From: a virus
Length of the DNA stretch: 64,000 nt
Reading direction: 5' to 3' (one strand)
Virus record (IMG/VR): IMGVR_UViG_3300013233_000195
Span: 36,624 to 100,623 of that record
In this document: positions 21,544-36,330 of the stretch, piece by piece
How positions within the stretch are numbered: position 1 is the stretch's first letter
Layout of the letters: each line of letters starts with the position of its first letter
Translations under genes and position numbers: made by a program
Notes under the pieces: model-generated
What the model was told of the DNA's origin: nothing
The model's database searches: none
Seen by the model: only the letters and a program-made list of their open reading frames with translations

Positions 21544-22027
21544 GTTTAGCCCTTGTTATATCCTTCCCACGAAACTCAACCCCATACGTTTGATAGGCTT
21601 CTTTCAGCTCTTTTGCTTTTTCGGTTCCCATAAAGTATCTAACTAGCTTGAGATAGGTTGCCGCAAACTCTCGACCATGCCAGCTAGCTTTAGCTGGTCT
21701 AATAGTATGCGCTATCTCCTCCAAAAGCACGCCAATACGCCGAAACTCTCTAGGAGCCTTTATATAGAACCCTGTAATGGGATTCCAACCACCTTCTGCA
21801 CTCTGCCTCCCCCTACCATCATGTACCTTAATTTTCAGACTTTTGTAGGGGCAGAGGTTTTTGAGAAACCAGGGACTCGTTGTCACAAGGTCTACGAAGT
21901 CTTGACATACTTGAACAGAGACAAATTCGGGGAGATCTCTAAAAAGATGAAAAGTAACATTCTGTGCCTCATAAAACTTATCTCTCTGGTAATCCCTGTA
22001 AGTGTTCGAAAATGGACTCTTTCTCAT
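21530..22027 (-). CDS. Zincin/SprT-like metalloprotease-fold protein with EExxH variant
   Basis: LLEEIAH...HGREF. Confidence 0.55.
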   Translation of the reverse strand: MRKSPFSNTYRDYQRDKFYEAQNVTFHLFRDLPEFVSVQVCQDFVDLVTTSPWFLKNLCPYKSLKIKVHDGRGRQSAEGGWNPITGFYIKAPREFRRIGVLLEEIAHTIRPAKASWHGREFAATYLKLVRYFMGTEKAKELKEAYQTYGVEFRGKDITRAKHGKV

Positions 22028-22045
22028 AGCCTCCCCTATTTATTT

Positions 22046-22120
22046 TGGTGTCCTGCATGGGAATCGAACCCATTTCTGGGGGTTGAAGGCCCCCGATCCT
22101 AACCAATAGACGAGCAGGAC
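22046..22120 (-). tRNA. tRNA-Glu(TTC)
   Basis: Cloverleaf, encoded CCA. Confidence 0.92.
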
Positions 22121-22344
22121 TATACACCTTTGCTATTTTCTTCTTTATCAATCCAATTTCCAATGTCTTGCAAAAGGGACGCACCGACAACAACGCAACC
22201 CCAGTAGAAGAAAAAGAAGGAGAAGAAAACTCCCAGAAAAGCTAAGACACCAACTTTTGATAAAATCAGTGGTAGAGAATACTTCACCAGGCAGAAAGCA
22301 CTCACAAGAAATGTGAGTATCTTTGCAACAATCTTTCTGGTCAT
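22120..22344 (-). CDS. Two-TM hypothetical protein
   Basis: Hydrophobic ORF downstream of a promoter. Confidence 0.5.
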   Translation of the reverse strand: MTRKIVAKILTFLVSAFCLVKYSLPLILSKVGVLAFLGVFFSFFFFYWGCVVVGASLLQDIGNWIDKEENSKGV

Positions 22345-22395
22345 CTCCGCCCCCCTTTACTATGTTGGGGGAACTGGATTCTCTCCAGTCCCCCC

Positions 22396-22424
22396 ATTCT
22401 ACCACATCCAGAGCAGGATGTCAA
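22396..22424 (-). promoter_or_regulatory. sigma70 promoter
   Basis: TTGACA-N17-TAGAAT, TGn; hairpin at 22366-22396 just downstream. Confidence 0.7.
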
Positions 22425-22431
22425 GGAAAAA

Positions 22432-23247
22432 TTACCAACCCAGGTCGATCCCCGCCGTTAGGAGAGTCAAAGCCTGTACCTGCTCAGTCTCCAGCCGGTC
22501 ATACCTTACTCTCAGATCTAGATCAAGAGAAAGATACTTCACTAGAGCATACTCAAAGTCCATCTCTCCCTCAACCACGGAGTCGGCGAAATCTTCGTCC
22601 ACAGGGTAGAAGAGTTCAAGAGAACGGTTAAGAGTTAAGTTCTCCCACCAAGTAGGCAGAACACTTGTGGAAGACAGAAGAATCCCATAATCATTCCTTG
22701 GAGAGCTTTCTCCTGTGAAAACGGGATAATCTGAAACCGTTCGACGGTAGCGGAAGCCTAGCTCGTTGAACCCATTGTCATTCTGGACCTGATAAGCAAA
22801 ATCTGAGTCCAGGGTGTAAGGGTCAAAAGGCTCCACTACTTGCGTTCCATCGGCCTTGAAAACATTATCAATGCCTGTGGTGCCCCGAACGCGGGCAAGA
22901 ACGAAAGAGTTGCTTGTGGAGTCTCCTAGCGCCCTTCCAAGCGAAACAGCAAGCCTACCTCGGTTTAGAAATGGGTTCCGGTCCTCATTCTTACCATCGT
23001 GAGCACCATACTCCACGTCAATGGAGTAAAGGGTCTGTAGACCAATAAAGGTGAGAAAATCAACCTGATTCTGAAGTTGAAGTTCTCCGCGATAGGTGTA
23101 CTGCTCCTGGCCACCGCGTGCCCAGTTGTCATTGAAACTAGCCATACCCTGAAGTTCTACATCTCCTGCCGCGAAGGCACCTGTTGCCCAGCATACAATA
23201 GCTGAGGTCAAGGCACCTAGAATGAACCACTTGATCTTATTCTTCAT
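22432..23247 (-). CDS. Secreted outer-membrane beta-barrel-like protein (DUF481-like)
   Basis: Signal peptide (AFA), alternating beta-strand pattern, C-terminal aromatic beta-signal GIDLGW. Confidence 0.6.
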   Translation of the reverse strand: MKNKIKWFILGALTSAIVCWATGAFAAGDVELQGMASFNDNWARGGQEQYTYRGELQLQNQVDFLTFIGLQTLYSIDVEYGAHDGKNEDRNPFLNRGRLAVSLGRALGDSTSNSFVLARVRGTTGIDNVFKADGTQVVEPFDPYTLDSDFAYQVQNDNGFNELGFRYRRTVSDYPVFTGESSPRNDYGILLSSTSVLPTWWENLTLNRSLELFYPVDEDFADSVVEGEMDFEYALVKYLSLDLDLRVRYDRLETEQVQALTLLTAGIDLGW

Positions 23248-23808
23248 TTATTCCCTCCATAAAAGTCGGGGATTGATTGCTACGTTGTTGTCCAAAACCT
23301 CGTAATGCAAATGGTAGCCCCTGGCGTTGCCGGTATTTCCAACAGTTCCAAGTATATCCCCTTGAACTACTTCTTTGCCCTTATAGACATTTGTTCTGTC
23401 TAGATGGGCGTATACTGTCGCAAGACCATTCTGGTGATCTACACAGACAGTATTTCCATATCCAGGGTAATAGCCTACCTCAGTCACAACTCCTGTTGCG
23501 GTGACTTTGATGGGAGTTCCCCATGGAGAAGCAAGATCAATCCCGGTATGATCTCTGGTTCTTAGTTTCCCAAACCCCGCACTTACTGGACCGGGAACAG
23601 GCGGAGAAAGGGGAAGATGAGAAATAGACTTTTCTATGTCATATTCCACCCCCTGCATTGACTCAGTATTTTCTTTGAGTTGGAAGACCTCCTGCTCTAG
23701 GATAGTTACCCTCTGTGAGAGATCCTCTATATGGGACATGAAAAACCCAGCCCCAACAAAAAGTCCCCATGCAATAGCACAGAGGATGATAGCAAAGGTG
23801 TATCGCAT
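23248..23808 (-). CDS. M23 family peptidase with N-terminal TM
   Basis: HTGID, YAHL, HLHYEV. Confidence 0.9.
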   Translation of the reverse strand: MRYTFAIILCAIAWGLFVGAGFFMSHIEDLSQRVTILEQEVFQLKENTESMQGVEYDIEKSISHLPLSPPVPGPVSAGFGKLRTRDHTGIDLASPWGTPIKVTATGVVTEVGYYPGYGNTVCVDHQNGLATVYAHLDRTNVYKGKEVVQGDILGTVGNTGNARGYHLHYEVLDNNVAINPRLLWRE

Positions 23809-23829
23809 TGCTTTGCCCCCAATAAAAAG

Positions 23830-23905
23830 TGGAAGCCCCGGTGGGATTCGAACCCACGGCTTGCTCATTAGAAGTGAGCCACTCTGTCCACTGAGTTACG
23901 GGGCC
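23830..23905 (-). tRNA. tRNA-Arg(TCT)
   Basis: Cloverleaf, CCA. Confidence 0.92.
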
Positions 23906-23910
23906 TCTTA

Positions 23911-24279
23911 TTATTCTGACTCTTCTGCCCAGAAGTGAAGGATTCCGCCACCATCGAGCAAGAAGAAGGCGTCTTGTCCTTGTTTGTATACCGCTGTAAC
24001 CTTTCGCACGGGATTAAACTCATAGGGCTCAAGTCCATCCATATCCGAAGCATTCAGAGACCAGTGAACTAGCTCATCGTCAACTTCTTCCCCACCAAAC
24101 ACTCGAAAAGTGTCTTGTGAGGCAAAGGACATCATAAGGGTCTTCTGAGAAACCCTGGAGATCATCTGGATTTCTTGATTGACAAAGTAACCCAGTCCCT
24201 GGGCATTGGAACTCTCCGGCCAATCTACAAGAGTTGATCCAGTATCCATCTGAAAGCCAATGTGAGCTAGCATTGTCAT
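23911..24279 (-). CDS. Hypothetical protein
   Basis: SD AAGGAG; fits between tRNAs. Confidence 0.6.
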   Translation of the reverse strand: MTMLAHIGFQMDTGSTLVDWPESSNAQGLGYFVNQEIQMISRVSQKTLMMSFASQDTFRVFGGEEVDDELVHWSLNASDMDGLEPYEFNPVRKVTAVYKQGQDAFFLLDGGGILHFWAEESE

Positions 24280-24292
24280 CTCCTTTTAGTAG

Positions 24293-24368
24293 TGGCACCC
24301 CCGGCAGGAATCAAACCCGCATCTTCACGGTTCGTAGCCGTGTGCCTTGTTCATTAGACCACAGGGGC
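24293..24368 (-). tRNA. tRNA-Arg(ACG)
   Basis: Cloverleaf, CCA; T-loop variant TTTGATT. Confidence 0.88.
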
Positions 24369-24369
24369 A

Positions 24370-24732
24370 TTATAGCTTTTTGTACTCTTCCAGCGTTAGG
24401 GCATTGCTGGCTCCACTAGGGAAATGCCCCTCCATCATACGCAAGAACTCGGGGAGAGTAGGAACCGGAATCTCTTTCCACAGTTCAACTCCTTGATGGA
24501 ATCCTAGCCTCCAAAACCGAACCTTGTTGCCTCTCCGTTGCCACCGATAGCAAGGTCTGCCAAAATAACGGACATCTTCAAACTCTCTGATAGCAACCCT
24601 CTCAGTAGGGTATTGGGGGTCTCTTCCCCCCCACCTTACAGAAGGCTTTTTTTGCTTCGCTTTTCTATCCGCTACCTTCTTTTGCTGTCTACCTCTTTTT
24701 TTAGCAGCTTCATAGGGAAGGCTAGAATTCAT
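24370..24732 (-). CDS. Basic hypothetical protein
   Basis: SD AAGGAG; between tRNAs. Confidence 0.6.
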   Translation of the reverse strand: MNSSLPYEAAKKRGRQQKKVADRKAKQKKPSVRWGGRDPQYPTERVAIREFEDVRYFGRPCYRWQRRGNKVRFWRLGFHQGVELWKEIPVPTLPEFLRMMEGHFPSGASNALTLEEYKKL

Positions 24733-24747
24733 CTTCTTCTCCTTATG

Positions 24748-24826
24748 TGGCGCACGGTATGGGATTTGAACCCACGATCACTGGATTGACAGTCCAGGGC
24801 CTTAGACCAGACTAGACTAACCGTGC
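24748..24826 (-). tRNA. tRNA-Asp(GTC)
   Basis: Cloverleaf, CCA. Confidence 0.92.
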
Positions 24827-25404
24827 ATATTCTTTTTCAATAGTCTGCGTGTACAGTTTACTTGCCACTTTGCCTCTGCCCACCTTACTGACTCTCTCCG
24901 CGCATAAGAGAGGATGTTTTCAGCAAGGTCATAACAGGCTTTCGTTGTGTTTATTGCAGTAATAAGAGTAATCTGCTCTACTGCATTGGGGAGCAAGCGA
25001 AATAGTAAGTTCCTGTAGTTTTTAAGTTCTTTATCTGTGATCTCCCCAGCAATCCACCGTCGCTTTACCTTTATGGCCTCTTTGATCCCTCTGGCCTCGT
25101 CTATTACAAGCTCAAAAGATCTAGCCCAAACAGCGCGTTCCATAAAACGACAGCCAAGCTCATGCAGCAGAGGAGCCGGAATCAGTTTTGGGCGTAGTAC
25201 CACCCAAAGCAGGTCTGCATACCATTCCTCATCTCGTCTATTTGTAGGAACTACCAAGATTCTCGGATTCAGTAGATCTTGTGCTGTCCAGAACTTTTTA
25301 CTCTTAAGCAGTTCCCGTACCCGCCTCCGTGGATATCTGTAACACGGTCTCCAAGAAATGATATCTTCAGCCGTTACACGAAAAGACTTTTCATCAAAAG
25401 ACAT
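24817..25404 (-). CDS. Hypothetical protein
   Basis: 195-aa ORF, SD AGGAG. Confidence 0.65.
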   Translation of the reverse strand: MSFDEKSFRVTAEDIISWRPCYRYPRRRVRELLKSKKFWTAQDLLNPRILVVPTNRRDEEWYADLLWVVLRPKLIPAPLLHELGCRFMERAVWARSFELVIDEARGIKEAIKVKRRWIAGEITDKELKNYRNLLFRLLPNAVEQITLITAINTTKACYDLAENILSYARRESVRWAEAKWQVNCTRRLLKKNMHG

Positions 25405-26763: not shown

Positions 26764-26791
26764 TTGAGCCTATTGAGCCGTTCGTGCGCCC

Positions 26792-26820
26792 ATTATACCA
26801 CGACGGGAGGGGGGAGTCAA
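26792..26820 (-). promoter_or_regulatory. sigma70 promoter
   Basis: TTGACT-N17-TATAAT, TGn. Confidence 0.8.
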
Positions 26821-26855
26821 GCAAAAAAGCGTCAACCCCCCTCCCGGTTGTGACT

Positions 26856-29271: not shown

Positions 29272-29588
29272 TGGTGGAGGTGGCGGGTATCGAGCCCGCG
29301 TCCATCAGCGAATCAACATTAGACTCTACATGCTTTTGCTTGGATTTCTAAGCTCCAAGCAGCTTGGCACCGGAGTTAGTTAAACAGCAACCTCGGAAAA
29401 CTGTGGTTCCGGTTCATGCGACACTCTTTCTCCCTCGAAACCGGGAAGAGAGGAGAAGAATGCTCCAACTTCAGTGAGTTGAAGGGTTACAATAGCTTCG
29501 TCAGTTATTGTGTTTGTTTTGGTCTTTTACGCAGCACCCTGCGGCATGCACTAATGATTACTTCCCTGTGTCGAATCCATTCACCCCC
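29272..29588 (-). ncRNA. ssrA: tmRNA
   Basis: 5' GGGGGTGAATGGATTCGAC; 3' GGACGCGGGCTCGATACCCGCCACCTCCACCA; G3.U70; GCATG helix; ATAACT resume signal before the tag ORF at 29502-29380. Confidence 0.92.
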
Positions 29589-32398: not shown

Positions 32399-32427
32399 AT
32401 TATACCACGCCGCCGCTCCGGTGTCAA
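32399..32427 (-). promoter_or_regulatory. Consensus sigma70 promoter
   Basis: TTGACA-N17-TATAAT, TGn. Confidence 0.85.
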
Positions 32428-32434
32428 GGGAAAA

Positions 32435-32710
32435 TCACAGGCCGCCGAGGGTGCGCAGCTCCTCGTCGATCTCGTGGAGTTCTTTTACCGCCCATTGGCG
32501 ATCAAGGAGAACAAGACCAATTTCAAAGAGTTCAGAGCGAGTCATCGGCCTTTCTCCAGCCTCTTTGCGCTTTTCATTCTCCTCTTTCAACTTCTGAACC
32601 AACCGGAACATGACCGGAGCAAATGGCTGGTGTATATACACCGAGTATTGTCCATAGAACATGTCCTTGTTGGACTTTAGCCGGATCTTTCTAGTCACCG
32701 TATCCTCCAA
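32435..32710 (-). CDS. Hypothetical protein
   Basis: SD GGAGG (likely GTG start). Confidence 0.55.
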   Translation of the reverse strand: MEDTVTRKIRLKSNKDMFYGQYSVYIHQPFAPVMFRLVQKLKEENEKRKEAGERPMTRSELFEIGLVLLDRQWAVKELHEIDEELRTLGGL

Positions 32711-32711
32711 G

Positions 32712-32785
32712 TGGAGCGGGCTATGGGATTCGAACCCATATGAACGGGGTGGAAACCCGACATGTTGCCATTACATCAAGCCCGC
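32712..32785 (-). tRNA. tRNA-Gly(TCC)
   Basis: GCG/CGC, U73, CCA. Confidence 0.92.
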
Positions 32786-32792
32786 AATGATT

Positions 32793-32896
32793 GAGAAGCA
32801 TTGTAGTAGTGGGATTCGAACCCACACAACCACCAACTACATCTTTTGGGTTGCAACTTGGTTTCCCTTCCAACTTGGGATACTACGATACTTCTC
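32793..32896 (-). ncRNA. tRNA-like RNA with extended 16-bp terminal stem, 21-nt anticodon loop and no CCA
   Basis: D-arm TCCC/GGGA, stem ACCAA/TTGGT, perfect T-arm GTGGG-TTCGAAT-CCCAC. Confidence 0.7.
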
Positions 32897-32899
32897 CGT

Positions 32900-32973
32900 T
32901 GGAGCAGCAGATGGGAATCGAACCCATGTACCTCCGTTAGTAACGGAGGATTCTACCACTGAATTACTACTGC
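32900..32973 (-). tRNA. Short-variable-loop tRNA with anticodon ACT (Thr/Gly-like body)
   Basis: Cloverleaf; loop TT-ACT-AA; G1-C72, C2-G71, U73, CCA. Confidence 0.8.
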
Positions 32974-33000
32974 GAATATGTTAAGCCAAAGTGTGTGAGT

Positions 33001-33102
33001 TTACAAATACTCCTCAGGATCACCCTTACAGCTAGAGTCAAAGGAATCAGGAGAACAGAAAAGTTCATACAGAAACAGAAAGAAGCCCGAAGAAAGAAAC
33101 AT
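33001..33102 (-). CDS. 33-aa small ORF (not in ORF track)
   Basis: AGGAGG then ATG; MFLSSGFFLFLYELFCSPDSFDSSCKGDPEEYL. Confidence 0.4.
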   Translation of the reverse strand: MFLSSGFFLFLYELFCSPDSFDSSCKGDPEEYL

Positions 33103-33131
33103 TGGAAACCCTCCTATCTTTTTAGAGACAT

Positions 33132-33208
33132 TGGGGCGACGGGTGGGACTTGAACCCACTCAGTCCGGGTCACAGCCGGAGGGACTAACCAGTTATCCTA
33201 CCGCCGCC
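33132..33208 (-). tRNA. tRNA-His(GTG)
   Basis: G-1:C73, CCA. Confidence 0.92.
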
Positions 33209-33218
33209 ATTATTCTGT

Positions 33219-33294
33219 GGAGAGCGCCTTCTCTGTTAGACCATCGGTGAACGATCAACCCCACCTTACGGGATTTGAACCCACATCTCTCTCC
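33219..33294 (-). ncRNA. Circularly permuted tRNA mimic (T-arm, closed acceptor, D-arm; YrlA Y-RNA-like topology)
   Basis: GGAGAG-AGAT-[GTGGG TTCAAAT CCCGT]-[GGTGGG..TTCACC]-TG-[GTCT..AGGC]-G-CTCTCC. Confidence 0.65.
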
Positions 33295-33298
33295 GTGC

Positions 33299-33373
33299 TG
33301 GCTGCTAGGGTGGGATTTGAACCCACACTTTGACGATTAACAGTCGCCAGCTCTACCATTAAGCTACCTAGCA
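33299..33373 (-). tRNA. tRNA-Asn(GTT)
   Basis: Cloverleaf, CCA. Confidence 0.92.
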
Positions 33374-33377
33374 ATTT

Positions 33378-33453
33378 TGGTGGACGAGGGAAGATTTGGA
33401 CTTCCGACCACCGACGTATCAGATCGGCACTCTGACCCCTGAGTTACTCGTCC
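33378..33453 (-). tRNA. tRNA-Ile(GAT)
   Basis: Cloverleaf, CCA; T-loop variant TCCAAAT. Confidence 0.85.
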
Positions 33454-33653
33454 ACATTTTTACTATAGTCTTCAACAACTCGAATGGAAACCTTCACAAC
33501 TCCCTTTCGAGTGAGGGGAGGAGGAATGTCTCCCTTTTCTCGAAAGATCCTCAAACTAAGTCCAGGAGTACGATAGAAGAATCCAAACTCTTGCTTAGAA
33601 ACGTATCCTACTGAGTCAAGAATTTCCGATGTTGTGTTGTCCTGATCTATCAT
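33444..33653 (-). CDS. Hypothetical protein
   Basis: SD GAGGAG before MIDQDN. Confidence 0.5.
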   Translation of the reverse strand: MIDQDNTTSEILDSVGYVSKQEFGFFYRTPGLSLRIFREKGDIPPPLTRKGVVKVSIRVVEDYSKNVDE

Positions 33654-33669
33654 TCTTATCTCCTCAAAG

Positions 33670-33746
33670 TGGAAGGGGTGGTCGGATTCGAACCGACGAT
33701 TGCGAGGTTCAAAGCCTCGTGTCTTTGTCCACTTGACGACACCCCT
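33670..33746 (-). tRNA. tRNA-Gln(TTG)
   Basis: Cloverleaf, CCA. Confidence 0.88.
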
Positions 33747-33749
33747 GTT

Positions 33750-33825
33750 TGGTGGACGGGGCGGGATTCGAACCCGCATTTCACGGCTTGCAAGGCCGGT
33801 GTGTTCCCATTACCACTACTCGCCC
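33750..33825 (-). tRNA. tRNA-Ala(TGC)
   Basis: G3.U70, CCA. Confidence 0.92.
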
Positions 33826-33829
33826 AAAA

Positions 33830-33904
33830 TGGTGACTTCCCTGGGACTTGAACCCAGCCTGCGGGGGCTTCAACCCCGTGCTCTACCAGATGAGCTAGGA
33901 AGTC
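33830..33904 (-). tRNA. tRNA-Phe(GAA)
   Basis: Cloverleaf, CCA. Confidence 0.9.
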
Positions 33905-33912
33905 AGTTTTTC

Positions 33913-33987
33913 TGGAGCCCTGCCTCGGATTCGAACCGAGATCTCCCACCTTACAAGAGTGGTATCATGCCATTAGACCAACAGGGC
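33913..33987 (-). tRNA. tRNA-Thr(TGT)
   Basis: Cloverleaf, CCA. Confidence 0.92.
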
Positions 33988-33991
33988 AAAC

Positions 33992-34067
33992 TGGAGCTAC
34001 CGGCGTGATTCGAACACGCATCTCCTGTCTTACGAGAACAGTATCTTACCCATTAGACTACGGTAGC
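33992..34067 (-). tRNA. tRNA-Thr(CGT)
   Basis: Cloverleaf, CCA. Confidence 0.9.
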
Positions 34068-34068
34068 A

Positions 34069-34143
34069 TGGAGCCGAAGAGCGGACTCGAACCGCTATCT
34101 CTTCCGTACCAAGGAAGGCTCTTGCCCTTAGAGCTACTCCGGC
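34069..34143 (-). tRNA. tRNA-Thr(GGT)
   Basis: Cloverleaf, CCA. Confidence 0.9.
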
Positions 34144-34144
34144 A

Positions 34145-34219
34145 TGGAGTCCGTGGGAGGATTCGAACCTCCGCATAGGTGGGTTGCAGCCACCCGCTTT
34201 GCCACTTAGCTACACGGAC
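34145..34219 (-). tRNA. tRNA-Cys(GCA)
   Basis: U73, CCA. Confidence 0.92.
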
Positions 34220-34555
34220 CTATGTAATCGTATAAACTGCAAACTCAATCAGAAGCTCAAAGACCTTGGCCTCCACAAACTCTGGGAGATAGGGAATGTC
34301 AATGAGACGATTCACTGCCTCCACAGCAACCTTCTTCTTATCCGCGCTAGTCCAGTTGCCCACTTCATCGGCAACTCGCTCAACCACATCGACTACTCCA
34401 AGGACAGCGGAAAAGATCACGCGCATGGAGTCAAGACTCCAACCGGACATACCGTGCAATTGAGTATTAACAGTAGACAACTCCTCAAGAATCAAGTCTA
34501 CCGCCGTATCTGGAGTAACTCCTTGGTAATCGGGAAGATCATTTGCTTTGACCAT
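34220..34555 (-). CDS. Hypothetical protein
   Basis: SD AAGGAGG; IDIPYLPEFVEAK motif. Confidence 0.7.
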   Translation of the reverse strand: MVKANDLPDYQGVTPDTAVDLILEELSTVNTQLHGMSGWSLDSMRVIFSAVLGVVDVVERVADEVGNWTSADKKKVAVEAVNRLIDIPYLPEFVEAKVFELLIEFAVYTIT

Positions 34556-34680: not shown

Positions 34681-36330
34681 CTACTCTGCGTATAGTATAC
34701 CATACAATTGCTCTTTTGTCAAGACCTTTATTTTGAATCCTGCCTCGGATTCGTAGGTTCGCTTGCGGGCCTGGGAGTGCTTCTCCAGAAGTCCTGGGTG
34801 AGAACCTCCCCCTAAGTCCATGAAATCATAGAAGATAGCGGAACTGCCCCGGAGCGTCCGCCCGATCTTTTGAAGGACTGTCTTGCCCGATTTTCCTCCT
34901 GCGGCATTGATAGCAACATCAAGTTCCGGCAGGTCAAAACCTTCGCCAAGCAATGTAGTGACCAAAACCCTTAGTTTGCCCCTTCTGAAATCCTCAATCA
35001 ATTGATTTCTTTTGGCCCTTACTTGTGTGCCATAGGCCCCCTCAGCATAAGCTGAGAAACTAGTAATCTCCTCAATTTGCTGTTTTACTCGATCTACCAA
35101 AACGAGAACCCGGTGGCCCATTTCCGCATGAGCATCTGCAATCTGCGCAATTAGCTGATTCCGGTCTGTATTCCCCTCAATGCCCAGCTTTCTACAAATC
35201 TGAAACCATTCTCCACCAGAGAGCCTTGCCCTGTGCTTCCTCTTAGCAACTCTATCAGCCTCCGCCTTAATCTTTGCAAAGGGAGAGTCGATCTCAATTA
35301 ATCGCACATCAGGAGCTGCGAGGTATCCCTCTTCAATCAGTTCACTAGCGCTTTTCTTATGAAGAACTGGCCCCGTAGCAGCTTCAAGTAGGAATGATGG
35401 TTCTTTAGTAGAGTCATCATAATCATCTCTTAGTGTCGCTGTAAGACCAATTCGATAAGGAGCAGCGATAGCACCTGCGATAAGATACCAAGTATTAGGC
35501 TGTCCATATGTTTTGATCGTTCTATTGCCAACTCGTCGCTTTCTCATACCTCTGCCAACATGGTGGCACTCATCAAGGATTAGTAGCTTGTACTTGTCGG
35601 CTACTTGTCTAATGAAGTCATCTGGAGCAGACTTATACATAAGCCACAAGGAGTCGGCAGTAGAAATAAGAATATCTCGGTCAAGCTCCTTCCAGCCCCC
35701 ACCAAATCGACCAACTTTATTATCTCCAAAGCAGTCTCGCAATACTTGCGAGGTTTGCTTTAATAGTTCCAAGTTTGGCACTAAGTACAGTGTTGGAAGA
35801 CAAAGTTCTCCAATAAGCATTGTAGCTAGAAAGGTTTTGCCTGCTCCCGTCGCATGGAGGACAATACCACAGCGTTCGCTTAGAATGGACTCTAATGCCT
35901 CCTGCTGATAAGGTCTTGGCACTAACTCTGTAGAAGGCATAAGGTCAACTCTGTATGAGTCTACATCCTCTCGACGTTCCGCTACACAAAACTTAGGCCC
36001 CGAAAGAGGCTGTCCCATCATCCCCTTACCAAGAATGTAGAGACCGGGGGGAAAGAACTGTTCTTCACCGTTCTCAGGATAACCTGCCCAAGCGGGCTTT
36101 TCAGGATCAAGGGGATCTTCTAACTCCCGAACCACTTGGGGTAGCAAGCCAATTGGAAATACATCGTCTGCGAAGAGACAATGTGTGACATAAACCTCCT
36201 GAACCTCTCCCCCCACCCTTCTATAGGTATTTGTCCCGTAAGTGCAGAGTTCTCTTATTCTCTTTTTAAAGGCTGTATCGTCTGTTTGTACTAATACCTG
36301 ATTCTCAAAGATCAGCAGGTCTCGGTGCAT
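34681..36330 (-). CDS. Superfamily 2 DNA helicase (UvsW/XPB-like)
   Basis: PRPYQ, ATGAGKT, DECHH, GLTAT, EGFDLP, QKIGRTLR. Confidence 0.92.
   Translation of the reverse strand: MHRDLLIFENQVLVQTDDTAFKKRIRELCTYGTNTYRRVGGEVQEVYVTHCLFADDVFPIGLLPQVVRELEDPLDPEKPAWAGYPENGEEQFFPPGLYILGKGMMGQPLSGPKFCVAERREDVDSYRVDLMPSTELVPRPYQQEALESILSERCGIVLHATGAGKTFLATMLIGELCLPTLYLVPNLELLKQTSQVLRDCFGDNKVGRFGGGWKELDRDILISTADSLWLMYKSAPDDFIRQVADKYKLLILDECHHVGRGMRKRRVGNRTIKTYGQPNTWYLIAGAIAAPYRIGLTATLRDDYDDSTKEPSFLLEAATGPVLHKKSASELIEEGYLAAPDVRLIEIDSPFAKIKAEADRVAKRKHRARLSGGEWFQICRKLGIEGNTDRNQLIAQIADAHAEMGHRVLVLVDRVKQQIEEITSFSAYAEGAYGTQVRAKRNQLIEDFRRGKLRVLVTTLLGEGFDLPELDVAINAAGGKSGKTVLQKIGRTLRGSSAIFYDFMDLGGGSHPGLLEKHSQARKRTYESEAGFKIKVLTKEQLYGILYAE

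What the first reader, a model, noticed from the sequence alone, without database searches (positions are those of the whole stretch)
32793..32896. CCA-less tRNA mimic with sealed 16-bp acceptor extension and enlarged anticodon loop
Seen: canonical D- and T-arms (an intact elbow), but the acceptor continues into a 16-bp helix (one mismatch, one G.U) with no CCA. The anticodon stem holds 21 nt beginning GT-TGC-AA. Every true tRNA here encodes CCA, and the extra pairing argues against simple decay. Inference: a non-chargeable decoy for tRNA-targeting toxins or nucleases, or a precursor with a 14-nt mini-intron.
Basis: partly seen in the sequence, partly recalled or inferred. Interest (0 to 1): 0.7.

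Follow-up and report, generated by a model that had tools for sequence, protein, structure and literature searches.

The report
Sealed, non-decoding phage tRNA look-alike
Among the 35 tRNA genes of an uncultured large phage sits one RNA gene that folds like a tRNA, but its two ends are locked together in a long helix and a 21-base loop replaces the anticodon loop, so it most likely imitates tRNA and does not decode; no relative was found anywhere, so its job is untested.

Summary
On the minus strand, 32793-32896 fills the spacer between tRNA(ACU) and tRNA-Gly. It folds into a cloverleaf with a textbook T arm, a GG-containing D arm and a 5-bp anticodon stem that closes 21 nt. The acceptor helix runs on for 9 more leader/trailer pairs: 16 positions, one C.A mismatch exactly at 1:72, one G.U, no CCA. 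All 35 real tRNAs encode CCA and have at most 2 such pairs; chance of nine is about 1e-4.

Rfam scores it 28.7 bits as tRNA (cut-off 29) and ARAGORN skips it. It lies inside a promoter-driven polycistronic tRNA operon.

The mini-intron reading is disfavoured. There is no bulge-helix-bulge and no splicing endonuclease was found. Either spliced anticodon (UGC or UGU) is already in the array, and Ala and Thr identity pairs are absent.

The decoy reading is untested. No homologue exists in any collection searched, and the phage's nearest proteins are 34-41% identical, so covariation cannot be assessed.

Best reading (about 50%): a selected, exonuclease-resistant, non-chargeable tRNA mimic. Its topology is that of Deinococcus Yrn1, but no Ro60 gene or Y-RNA motif was found. 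Main rival: a dead tRNA.

Unchecked notes of this scan describe similar sealed tRNA look-alikes in other phages.

The parts
32888..32896 (-). 5' (leader) strand of the 9-bp helix that extends the acceptor stem, GAGAAGUAU; U at -1
   Evidence: pair probabilities 0.96-1.0
32881..32887 (-). acceptor 5' strand: C1 (mismatched with A72) followed by GUAGUA
32865..32880 (-). U8 and the D arm CCC-AAGUUGGAA-GGG (A14, G18G19 and A21 present; position 9 absent)
   Evidence: alignment to RF00005; (0.72)
32832..32862 (-). anticodon-arm substitute: 5-bp stem ACCAA/UUGGU closing 21 nt; it can extend by UUGCA/UGUAG after a bulged G to a rod of about 10 bp with a 10-nt loop ACCCAAAAGA
   Evidence: about 0.5
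32826..32831 (-). variable region GGUUGU (GGUUG could alternatively pair with CAACC of the big loop)
   Evidence: the alternative pairing is read from the sequence and is not significant
32809..32825 (-). T arm GUGGG-UUCGAAU-CCCAC, canonical; 18-19 nt identical to the T arms of tRNA-Leu(CAA) and tRNA-Lys(UUU) of the same array
32802..32808 (-). acceptor 3' strand UACUAC followed by A72
32793..32801 (-). A73 and the trailer strand of the extension, AUGCUUCUC; UGC stands where CCA would be
32900..32973 (-). upstream neighbour, the unusual short-arm tRNA with anticodon ACU; its CCA is only 3 nt (ACG) from the sealed helix
32712..32785 (-). downstream neighbour tRNA-Gly(UCC), 7 nt (AAUCAUU) after the sealed helix; RNase P cleavage at its 5' end would set the element's 3' end (inference)
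34694..34722 (-). sigma-70-type promoter (11 of 12, TG extension) ahead of tRNA-Tyr, the likely start of the polycistronic transcript that contains the element; the next perfect promoter is at 32399-32427, downstream of the element

Best explanation
It is a real, tRNA-derived small RNA gene, a tRNA mimic, and neither a working tRNA nor debris.

Shown: it is placed so that it is transcribed as part of the phage's polycistronic tRNA operon. It folds into a cloverleaf with an intact D-loop/T-loop elbow. Its 5' and 3' ends are locked into a continuous 16-position helix that stacks on the T stem. A longer irregular hairpin replaces the anticodon stem-loop.

Inferred: processing of the flanking tRNAs (RNase P at the 5' end of tRNA-Gly, then 3' exonucleases trimming back to the duplex) releases an RNA of about 105-115 nt. 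Its base-paired ends protect it from exonucleases. They also hinder RNase P, which needs a single-stranded leader, and they block CCA addition and aminoacylation. The RNA would therefore persist as an uncharged, non-decoding tRNA-shaped molecule that offers its elbow, and perhaps its special hairpin loop, to a tRNA-binding factor of host or phage, acting as a partner RNA, sponge or decoy. The identity of that factor is unknown.
For: 1. The structure is far beyond chance.
- The 9 extra contiguous leader:trailer pairs have P about 1.2e-4, and the 35 true tRNAs have at most 2.
- 33 of 34 helix positions are standard pairs, and the one mismatch sits exactly at 1:72.
- The fold z-score is -3.55, and the fold persists with both neighbours attached.

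2. The tRNA core is intact. The T loop is perfect and G18G19, A14, A21 and U8 are present. Rfam tRNA gives 28.7 bits despite a 29-nt insertion state.

3. This is not how decay looks. CCA is gone and the flanks have become complementary, yet no stem has picked up mismatches. There is no close paralogue in the array from which it could be a recent copy.

4. It fills an otherwise tight spacer in a compact array and lies between promoters on the tRNA strand.

5. The design has a precedent. D. radiodurans Yrn1 also has its end helix at the acceptor position and a 5-bp 'anticodon arm' between the D-like and T arms (Chen et al. 2014, PMC4201824).

6. The phage invests in tRNA biology: 35 tRNAs, a tmRNA and an RtcB ligase.
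Against: - No homologue was found, so there is no covariation or conservation evidence at all.
- There are no expression data.
- The anticodon-arm substitute is only about 50% populated in the predicted ensemble.
- No candidate partner protein was found. No TROVE/Ro60 gene was detected in the 100-kb record and no vWA domain in the roughly 50 ORFs scanned, and the small neighbouring ORFs are uninformative.
- A single orphan copy is also what a dying gene looks like.
Confidence: 0.5

Rival explanations
1. It is a dead tRNA gene. An old tRNA copy suffered an insertion in its anticodon loop and lost its CCA. The flanking complementarity is a leftover of another element or an accident, and the RNA has no function.
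For: - It is an orphan, with no homologue in any collection.
- ARAGORN does not call it, and its Rfam score is just under the cut-off.
- Pseudo-tRNAs are reported in other phage arrays, for example one in XacN1 (PMC5852040).
- A 17-nt internal near-repeat (13 of 17 identical, D arm against anticodon arm) hints at slippage.
Against: - Nine perfect extra pairs in the exact coaxial register have P about 1e-4.
- All other stems are free of mismatches and the elbow nucleotides are intact.
- Removing either copy of the internal repeat does not restore a normal tRNA.
- The repeat is not significant in itself (P about 0.07).
Confidence: 0.22
2. It is a processing or punctuation element. The tRNA-shaped fold with a long duplex serves only in cis. 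It would direct or delay endonuclease cuts (RNase P, RNase III or RNase E) in the polycistronic transcript, for example controlling 3' maturation of the odd tRNA(ACU), whose CCA lies 3 nt from the helix.
For: - Only 3 nt separate the upstream CCA from the helix, and 7 nt separate the helix from tRNA-Gly.
- The helix plus the T stem give about 21 stacked pairs, near the length of an RNase III substrate (established knowledge).
- U at -1 and the C.A opening sit exactly 12 bp from the T loop, where RNase P measures its cleavage site (sequence plus established knowledge).
Against: - The other 34 junctions of the array manage without such an element.
- A full D arm and an elaborate anticodon-arm hairpin are not needed for punctuation.
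Confidence: 0.1
3. It is a Y RNA of the Yrn1 type. The sealed end helix docks a Ro60/Rsr-like ring protein of phage or host, and the tRNA-like module recruits or regulates a nuclease or the repair ligase.
For: - Its topology matches the published description of Yrn1 (PMC4201824).
- The 5' strand contains GGAGAAG, one mismatch from the Y-RNA motif GNCGAAN0-1G.
- The phage encodes RtcB, which shares an operon with rsr and yrlA in Salmonella (PMC7790460 abstract).
- A second tRNA-like spacer, 33208-33298, begins with the same ACGGAGA directly after a CCA.
- The record is estimated to be only 37% complete.
Against: - There is no TROVE match in the 100 kb and no vWA or Ro60-like hit among about 50 ORFs.
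- The mismatch falls on the conserved C of the motif.
- The Rfam YrlA hit is 19.8 bits against a cut-off of 69. It is the dimeric-tRNA artefact that Chen et al. warn about: the T arm of tRNA(ACU) joined to the D arm of the element.
- The neighbouring spacer is not YrlA by Rfam, and its fold is not better than shuffles.
- The ACAGCAA 'handle' named in earlier notes of this scan is absent here.
Confidence: 0.1
4. It is a genuine tRNA precursor: a CCA-less gene whose 14-nt insert is removed and rejoined (RtcB) and whose trailer is cut by RNase Z before CCA addition, giving tRNA-Ala(UGC) or tRNA-Thr(UGU).
For:
- The phage encodes an RtcB ligase.
- U74 follows the discriminator, as RNase Z substrates often have (established knowledge).
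Against: - There is no bulge-helix-bulge, and the ARAGORN call puts the intron at a non-canonical position with a shifted, mismatched acceptor.
- No splicing endonuclease was found and no CCA-adding enzyme in the record.
- Both possible anticodons are already served by normal tRNAs.
- U3-A70 rules out Ala identity, and C1.A72 with G2-C71 rules out Thr identity, whereas the real Ala tRNA has G3.U70 and the real Thr tRNAs have G1, C2.
- 14 nt is far too short for a group I intron.
- No such splicing is known in bacteria (established knowledge).
Confidence: 0.04

Closest known systems
Canonical bacterial or phage tRNA (Rfam RF00005)
   Same: Four-arm cloverleaf in the normal order. The T arm is perfect, and G18G19, A14, A21 and U8 are present. 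The acceptor plus T stem stack is 7 + 5 bp. It is located in a tRNA operon. It scores 28.7 bits.
   Different: 21 nt stand where a 7-nt anticodon loop belongs. There is no CCA, while all 35 neighbours encode it. The acceptor helix is prolonged by 9 leader:trailer pairs. It has a C1.A72 mismatch and an AU-rich acceptor. It scores below the Rfam cut-off and ARAGORN does not call it.
Deinococcus radiodurans Yrn1 (Y RNA bound by Rsr/Ro60; Chen et al. 2014, PMC4201824)
   Same: A non-permuted tRNA-like module: the helix formed by the RNA's two ends occupies the acceptor position, a 5-bp 'anticodon arm' lies between the D-like and T arms, and it is co-transcribed with a tRNA.
   Different: No Ro60 gene was found, and the conserved Ro60-binding sequence is not present (GGAGAAG against GNCGAAN0-1G). 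Here the D arm is complete, whereas Yrn1's is doubtful. There is no sequence similarity that a search could detect.
YrlA (Rfam RF02553), the tRNA-like Y RNA of Salmonella, Mycobacterium and mycobacteriophages
   Same: A tRNA mimic with D and T arms that cannot decode, and it is known in phages.
   Different: YrlA is circularly permuted (T arm, closed acceptor hairpin, D arm), with its ends at the anticodon position, and it lies within 4 kb of rsr. This element has the normal order. It scores 19.8 bits against a cut-off of 69, and only through an artefactual alignment across two adjacent genes.
Archaeal or eukaryotic intron-containing pre-tRNAs
   Same: Extra nucleotides in the anticodon arm that pair with the anticodon region, and an RtcB-type ligase encoded by the same genome.
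   Different: No bulge-helix-bulge and no endonuclease were found. The context is bacterial-type (tmRNA, sigma-70 promoters). The spliced product would be redundant and would lack identity elements.

Membership tests
tRNA (RF00005) | Score at or above the Rfam gathering threshold (29 bits) | tested here: not met
   28.7 bits, E = 1.9e-4 on the 171-nt stretch; absent from the gathering-threshold list; not called by ARAGORN at default settings
tRNA (RF00005) | 7-nt anticodon loop on a 5-bp stem | tested here: not met
   The 5-bp stem encloses 21 nt
tRNA (RF00005) | Single-stranded 3' end NCCA, encoded or addable | tested here: not met
   A73 is followed by UGC, and positions 73-81 pair with the leader. 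Whether cellular enzymes open and remodel the end could not be tested.
tRNA (RF00005) | D-loop/T-loop elbow nucleotides (G18G19, U54U55C56, A58, A14, U8) | tested here: met
   Alignment to the Rfam consensus
YrlA (RF02553) | Covariance-model score at or above 69 bits, with the permuted order T arm, acceptor hairpin, D arm | tested here: not met
   19.8 bits; the alignment joins the T arm of tRNA(ACU) to the D arm of the element, the false-positive type described in PMC4201824
Bacterial Y RNAs (YrlA, YrlB, Yrn1) | GNCGAAN0-1G (Ro60-contact) motif near the 5' end | tested here: not met
   Only GGAGAAG is present, with a mismatch at the C
Bacterial Y RNAs (YrlA, YrlB, Yrn1) | Encoded within about 4 kb of a Ro60/Rsr (TROVE) gene on the same strand | tested here: not met
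   No TROVE match at E <= 0.1 in the whole 100,623-bp record, and none among about 50 ORFs scanned. The record is estimated to be 37% complete, so absence from the phage is not shown.
Yrn1-type topology | End helix at the acceptor position, with D-like arm, 5-bp anticodon-like arm and T arm in the normal order | tested here: met
   The fold compared with the description in PMC4201824. This is a resemblance of design, not homology.
Intron-containing tRNA (bulge-helix-bulge type) | Two 3-nt bulges separated by a 4-bp helix at the exon-intron borders | tested here: not met
   The arm has a single 1-nt bulge
Intron-containing tRNA (bulge-helix-bulge type) | A splicing endonuclease is available | tested here: not met
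   PF01974 is absent from the record. The host is unknown.
Intron-containing tRNA (any type) | The spliced product is a plausible tRNA with an identity set matching its anticodon | tested here: not met
   UGC would need G3.U70 and UGU would need G1-C72 and C2-G71. The element has C1.A72, G2-C71 and U3-A70.

The most novel reading that the evidence does not exclude
The element is a purpose-built tRNA decoy or partner RNA. It would be a nuclease-proof, uncharged tRNA body, made in quantity from the tRNA operon, that captures a host tRNA-directed defence enzyme or a tRNA elbow-binding factor. It might act as one unit with the adjacent abnormal tRNA(ACU), to which it may stay joined. Together with the similar sealed look-alikes that other (unchecked) notes of this scan report in unrelated phages, it would point to an undescribed, repeatedly invented class of phage counter-defence RNAs.
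Probability: 0.15. Interest if true: 0.75.

Novelty: new variant of a known kind. Interest (0 to 1): 0.4.

Why it matters
Phage tRNA arrays are usually read as codon-supply or as replacements for tRNAs cut by host defences. A structurally maintained array member that cannot decode or be charged would show that these arrays also carry tRNA-shaped regulatory or decoy RNAs. tRNA mimics with sealed ends are so far documented experimentally only as Ro60 partners (Y RNAs). An example with no Ro60 gene found in the sequenced part of the genome would widen that picture and give a simple, testable object of about 110 nt. Because the element is an orphan with no expression or conservation data, its present weight is modest.

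Tried and rejected
Homologue searches, all empty or chance only:
- blastn of the locus against 50,697 phage records.
- Four exact or gapped patterns in IMG/VR: the D arm with the anticodon stem, the D arm plus T loop with long spacing, the anticodon arm of tRNA(ACU), and the 18-nt big-loop core.
- Two metagenome scans.
- One scan of GTDB genomes.
- The five 18- or 19-mer hits have no tRNA-like context by model R1 or ARAGORN.

Synteny route:
- The nearest relatives of the helicase next to the array are 34% identical, and those of the capsid protein 41%.
- The helicase as a single query found nothing in IMG/VR.
- A capsid alignment found three IMG/VR contigs at 31-35% identity. They carry no tRNAs and no R1 match.
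- tRNA-block and tmRNA blastn against phages gave only single-tRNA similarities.

Other checks:
- There is no paralogue in the phage's own record, and no parent tRNA is evident in the array.
- Rejected the Rfam YrlA hit as an artefact.
- Rejected a regulatory-seed idea: the complement of the loop has no better-than-chance targets in the window.
- The ACAGCAA handle of earlier notes is absent.
- The 8-nt palindrome GUUGCAAC (P about 0.21) and the 17-nt internal near-repeat (P about 0.07) are not significant.
- The shared ACGGAGAR start of two spacers occurs 8 times in the window against 3.4 expected, so it is a weak lead.
- The small neighbouring ORFs gave nothing in Pfam, PHROGs or the ESM Atlas.

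Full report
**What is there**

The window is part of a 100,623-bp IMG/VR virus record that CheckV estimates to be 37% complete. Between 22046 and 34668 it carries 35 tRNA genes on the minus strand, and a tmRNA at 29272-29588.

The finding occupies the 114-nt spacer between the CCA of an unusual tRNA with anticodon ACU (32900-32973) and tRNA-Gly(UCC) (32712-32785). Three nt (ACG) precede it and seven (AAUCAUU) follow it.

- **Extension helix.** GAGAAGUAU pairs with AUGCUUCUC: nine pairs, one U.G.
- **Acceptor stem.** A C.A mismatch falls precisely at tRNA position 1:72, followed by six pairs (GUAGUA/UACUAC).
- **D arm.** CCC-AAGUUGGAA-GGG, with A14, G18G19 and A21.
- **Anticodon stem.** The 5-bp stem ACCAA/UUGGU encloses 21 nt that begin GUUGCAA.
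- **Variable region.** 5-6 nt.
- **T arm.** A textbook GUGGG-UUCGAAU-CCCAC.
- **3' end.** After A73 comes UGC, not CCA.

**Is it more than chance?**

- The minimum-energy fold (-37.8 kcal/mol) has z = -3.55, and no shuffle of 200 does as well.
- Folded together with both neighbouring tRNAs, the extension and acceptor pairs keep probabilities of 0.88-1.0, the T arm 0.96, the D arm 0.72 and the anticodon-arm substitute about 0.5.
- All 35 genuine tRNAs end in an encoded CCA. None has more than two contiguous pairs between leader and trailer.
- With the local base composition, nine in the fixed coaxial register have a probability of 1.2e-4.
- Rfam's tRNA model gives 28.7 bits, a hair under its 29-bit cut-off, even though it has to skip a 29-nt insertion. 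ARAGORN does not call the element at default settings.

The 21-nt 'loop' can form five more pairs (UUGCA/UGUAG, two G.U) beyond a bulged G, giving a rod of about 10 bp with a 10-nt loop. The D arm lacks position 9 and has only three firm pairs.

**Transcription context**

A strong sigma-70-type promoter (11 of 12, with a TG extension) lies at 34722-34694 on the minus strand, just ahead of tRNA-Tyr. The next perfect promoter (12 of 12) is at 32427-32399, downstream of the element and of the small ORF that follows tRNA-Gly. No convincing promoter or terminator lies in between on that strand. The element is therefore placed to be transcribed within the polycistronic tRNA RNA. That it is actually made is an inference.

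**Testing the mini-intron reading**

It does so only by putting the intron at a non-canonical place and using a shifted acceptor with mismatches. Depending on which 14 nt are removed, the loop becomes GUUGCAA/G (anticodon UGC, Ala) or GUUGUAG (UGU, Thr).

- Both anticodons are already provided by normal tRNAs in the array.
- The real tRNA-Ala has G3.U70 and the three Thr tRNAs begin G1, C2. The element has C1.A72, G2-C71 and U3-A70.
- The arm has one single-base bulge and no bulge-helix-bulge.
- No tRNA-intron endonuclease domain is found in the record, and no CCA-adding enzyme.
- 14 nt cannot be a group I intron.

The phage does encode an RtcB ligase (record 33216-34472, outside the window). 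RtcB is common in large phages as a tRNA-repair enzyme (PMC7824862) and does not single out this element. I rate the precursor reading at about 4%.

**Testing Y-RNA membership**

Rfam reports a weak YrlA hit (19.8 bits, cut-off 69) over 32830-32930. The alignment joins the T arm of tRNA(ACU) to the D arm of the element. This is the dimeric-tRNA false positive that Chen et al. 2014 warn of (PMC4201824).

YrlA is circularly permuted and this element is not. The same paper, however, describes D. radiodurans Yrn1 as having the opposite orientation. There the helix formed by the two RNA ends is in the acceptor position, and a 5-bp 'anticodon arm' lies between the D-like and T arms. That is the topology seen here.

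The defining features of Y RNAs fail or could not be shown.
- The 5' strand has GGAGAAG, not GNCGAAN0-1G.
- No TROVE domain is found in the 100 kb.
- Pfam scans of about 50 ORFs found DnaB, PolA fused to UDG, RecA, SbcCD-like proteins, portal, ribonucleotide reductase, ClpP, ThyX, IMPDH, glycosyltransferases, methyltransferases, an M23 peptidase, capsid and tail tube. They found nothing Ro60- or vWA-like.

It is not YrlA by Rfam, its fold is no better than shuffles, and the motif is only mildly enriched in the window (8 against 3.4 expected).

So the element works like, at most, a Yrn1-type RNA. Membership is not supported.

**Search for relatives**

This would have been the decisive test, and it failed for lack of material.
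- The locus has no blastn match among 50,697 phage records.
- Patterns from the D arm, the long arm, the big loop and the neighbouring tRNA(ACU) found nothing, or only chance 18- to 19-mers without tRNA context, in IMG/VR, JGI metagenomes and GTDB genomes.
- A single-sequence covariance model (R1) finds no second copy in the phage.
- The phage itself is isolated. The best helicase relative among 5.8 billion proteins is 34% identical and the best capsid relative 41%.
- The three IMG/VR contigs recovered with a capsid alignment (31-35% identity) have no tRNA genes at all.

So neither compensatory changes nor decay can be demonstrated.

**Most likely mechanism**

The pattern is not that of simple decay. 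The CCA has been replaced, and nine flanking positions on each side are mutually complementary. Yet 33 of 34 helix positions are standard pairs and every elbow nucleotide is intact. No close parent copy exists in the array.

I therefore favour (about 50%) a selected, tRNA-derived mimic. The following steps are inferred from established enzymology.
- RNase P cleavage at tRNA-Gly defines a 3' tail, which exonucleases trim back to the duplex.
- The paired leader, which RNase P and its protein subunit need single-stranded, hinders 5' cleavage. The paired 3' end cannot receive CCA or an amino acid.
- The product is a stable, uncharged, non-decoding tRNA body. It displays the elbow that RNase P, TruB, TrmA, T-boxes and other factors recognise, and a distinctive hairpin.

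What it binds is unknown.

It is noteworthy that U(-1) and the C.A opening lie exactly 12 bp from the T loop, the distance at which RNase P cuts. Controlled opening at that point, or RNase III cleavage of the roughly 21-bp stacked helix, cannot be excluded. This underlies the processing-element rival (about 10%). A plain pseudogene remains the main rival (about 22%).

**Relation to earlier notes of this scan**

Unchecked notes report sealed-end tRNA look-alikes in other phages. One is a tRNA-Leu-shaped RNA with a 17-bp sealed stem and an insert in the anticodon, also without relatives. Others are families on an 'ACAGCAA handle' next to Ro60-like genes. I tested only the handle, and it is absent here. 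No look-alike of this locus exists in the scan's index. These notes suggest the design recurs, but they are leads, not evidence.

**Verdict**

This is a real and unusual sequence feature: a sealed, non-decoding tRNA look-alike in a phage tRNA operon. It is a new variant of the known kind 'tRNA mimic RNA'. There is no family membership, no relatives and no functional evidence. Interest is moderate (0.4).

Noticed in passing
window 32900-32973 (-) with 32786-32899: The abnormal short-arm tRNA with anticodon ACU lies only 3 nt upstream of the sealed helix. The 3' strand of its anticodon stem (ACGGAGG) repeats the ACGGAG that opens the element, so its 5' stem strand could alternatively pair with the element's leader. 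With so short a single-stranded gap the two may stay joined as one RNA of about 190 nt.
   Followed up: partly
window 33208-33298 (-): A second structured spacer begins ACGGAGAG directly after the CCA of tRNA-Asn, like the element's ACGGAGAA after the CCA of tRNA(ACU). It has a T-arm-like hairpin and a GGAGAG/CUCUCC closing stem. It is not YrlA by Rfam, and its fold energy equals that of shuffles.
   Followed up: partly
window 32832-32879 (-): An internal tandem near-repeat of 17 nt: CCAAGUUGGAAGGGAAA (D arm) followed by CCAAGUUGCAACCCAAA (anticodon arm). 13 of 17 positions are identical and all four differences are G to C. There is also an 8-nt palindrome GUUGCAAC, and CAACC can pair with the variable-region GGUUG (a possible pseudoknot). 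None of these is statistically significant alone.
   Followed up: partly
window 26764-26855 (-): This 92-nt spacer between tRNA-Lys(CUU) and tRNA-Arg(CCU) holds a GC-rich hairpin (GGGAGGGGGG...CCCCCCUCCC) that overlaps a consensus promoter, TTGACT-17-TATAAT. It looks like an internal terminator/promoter unit inside the array.
   Followed up: no
window 32974-33131 (-): The spacer upstream of tRNA(ACU) has AGGAGG followed by an ATG and an open frame of about 33 codons rich in Phe, Leu and Ser. It may encode a small hydrophobic peptide inside the tRNA operon (read).
   Followed up: no
record G000:33216-34472 (+), about 2.2 kb before the window start (L009:15216-16472): An RtcB-family RNA ligase gene (180 and 61 bits for the two parts of one open frame). 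This is a tRNA-repair function in the same phage as the large tRNA array.
   Followed up: partly
L009:3727-7065 (+), record 21727-25065: A class II ribonucleotide reductase of 1112 aa carries a LAGLIDADG-type insertion around residues 475-542, probably an intein or homing-endonuclease insert. DNA polymerase A (L008:4040-6709) is fused to an N-terminal uracil-DNA-glycosylase-family domain.
   Followed up: no
window 32435-32710 (-): A small basic ORF with a strong GGAGGA ribosome-binding site begins directly after the CCA of tRNA-Gly and is co-transcribed with the element. There are only faint ESM Atlas leads to TraM or ribbon-helix-helix DNA binders and no family match.
   Followed up: partly
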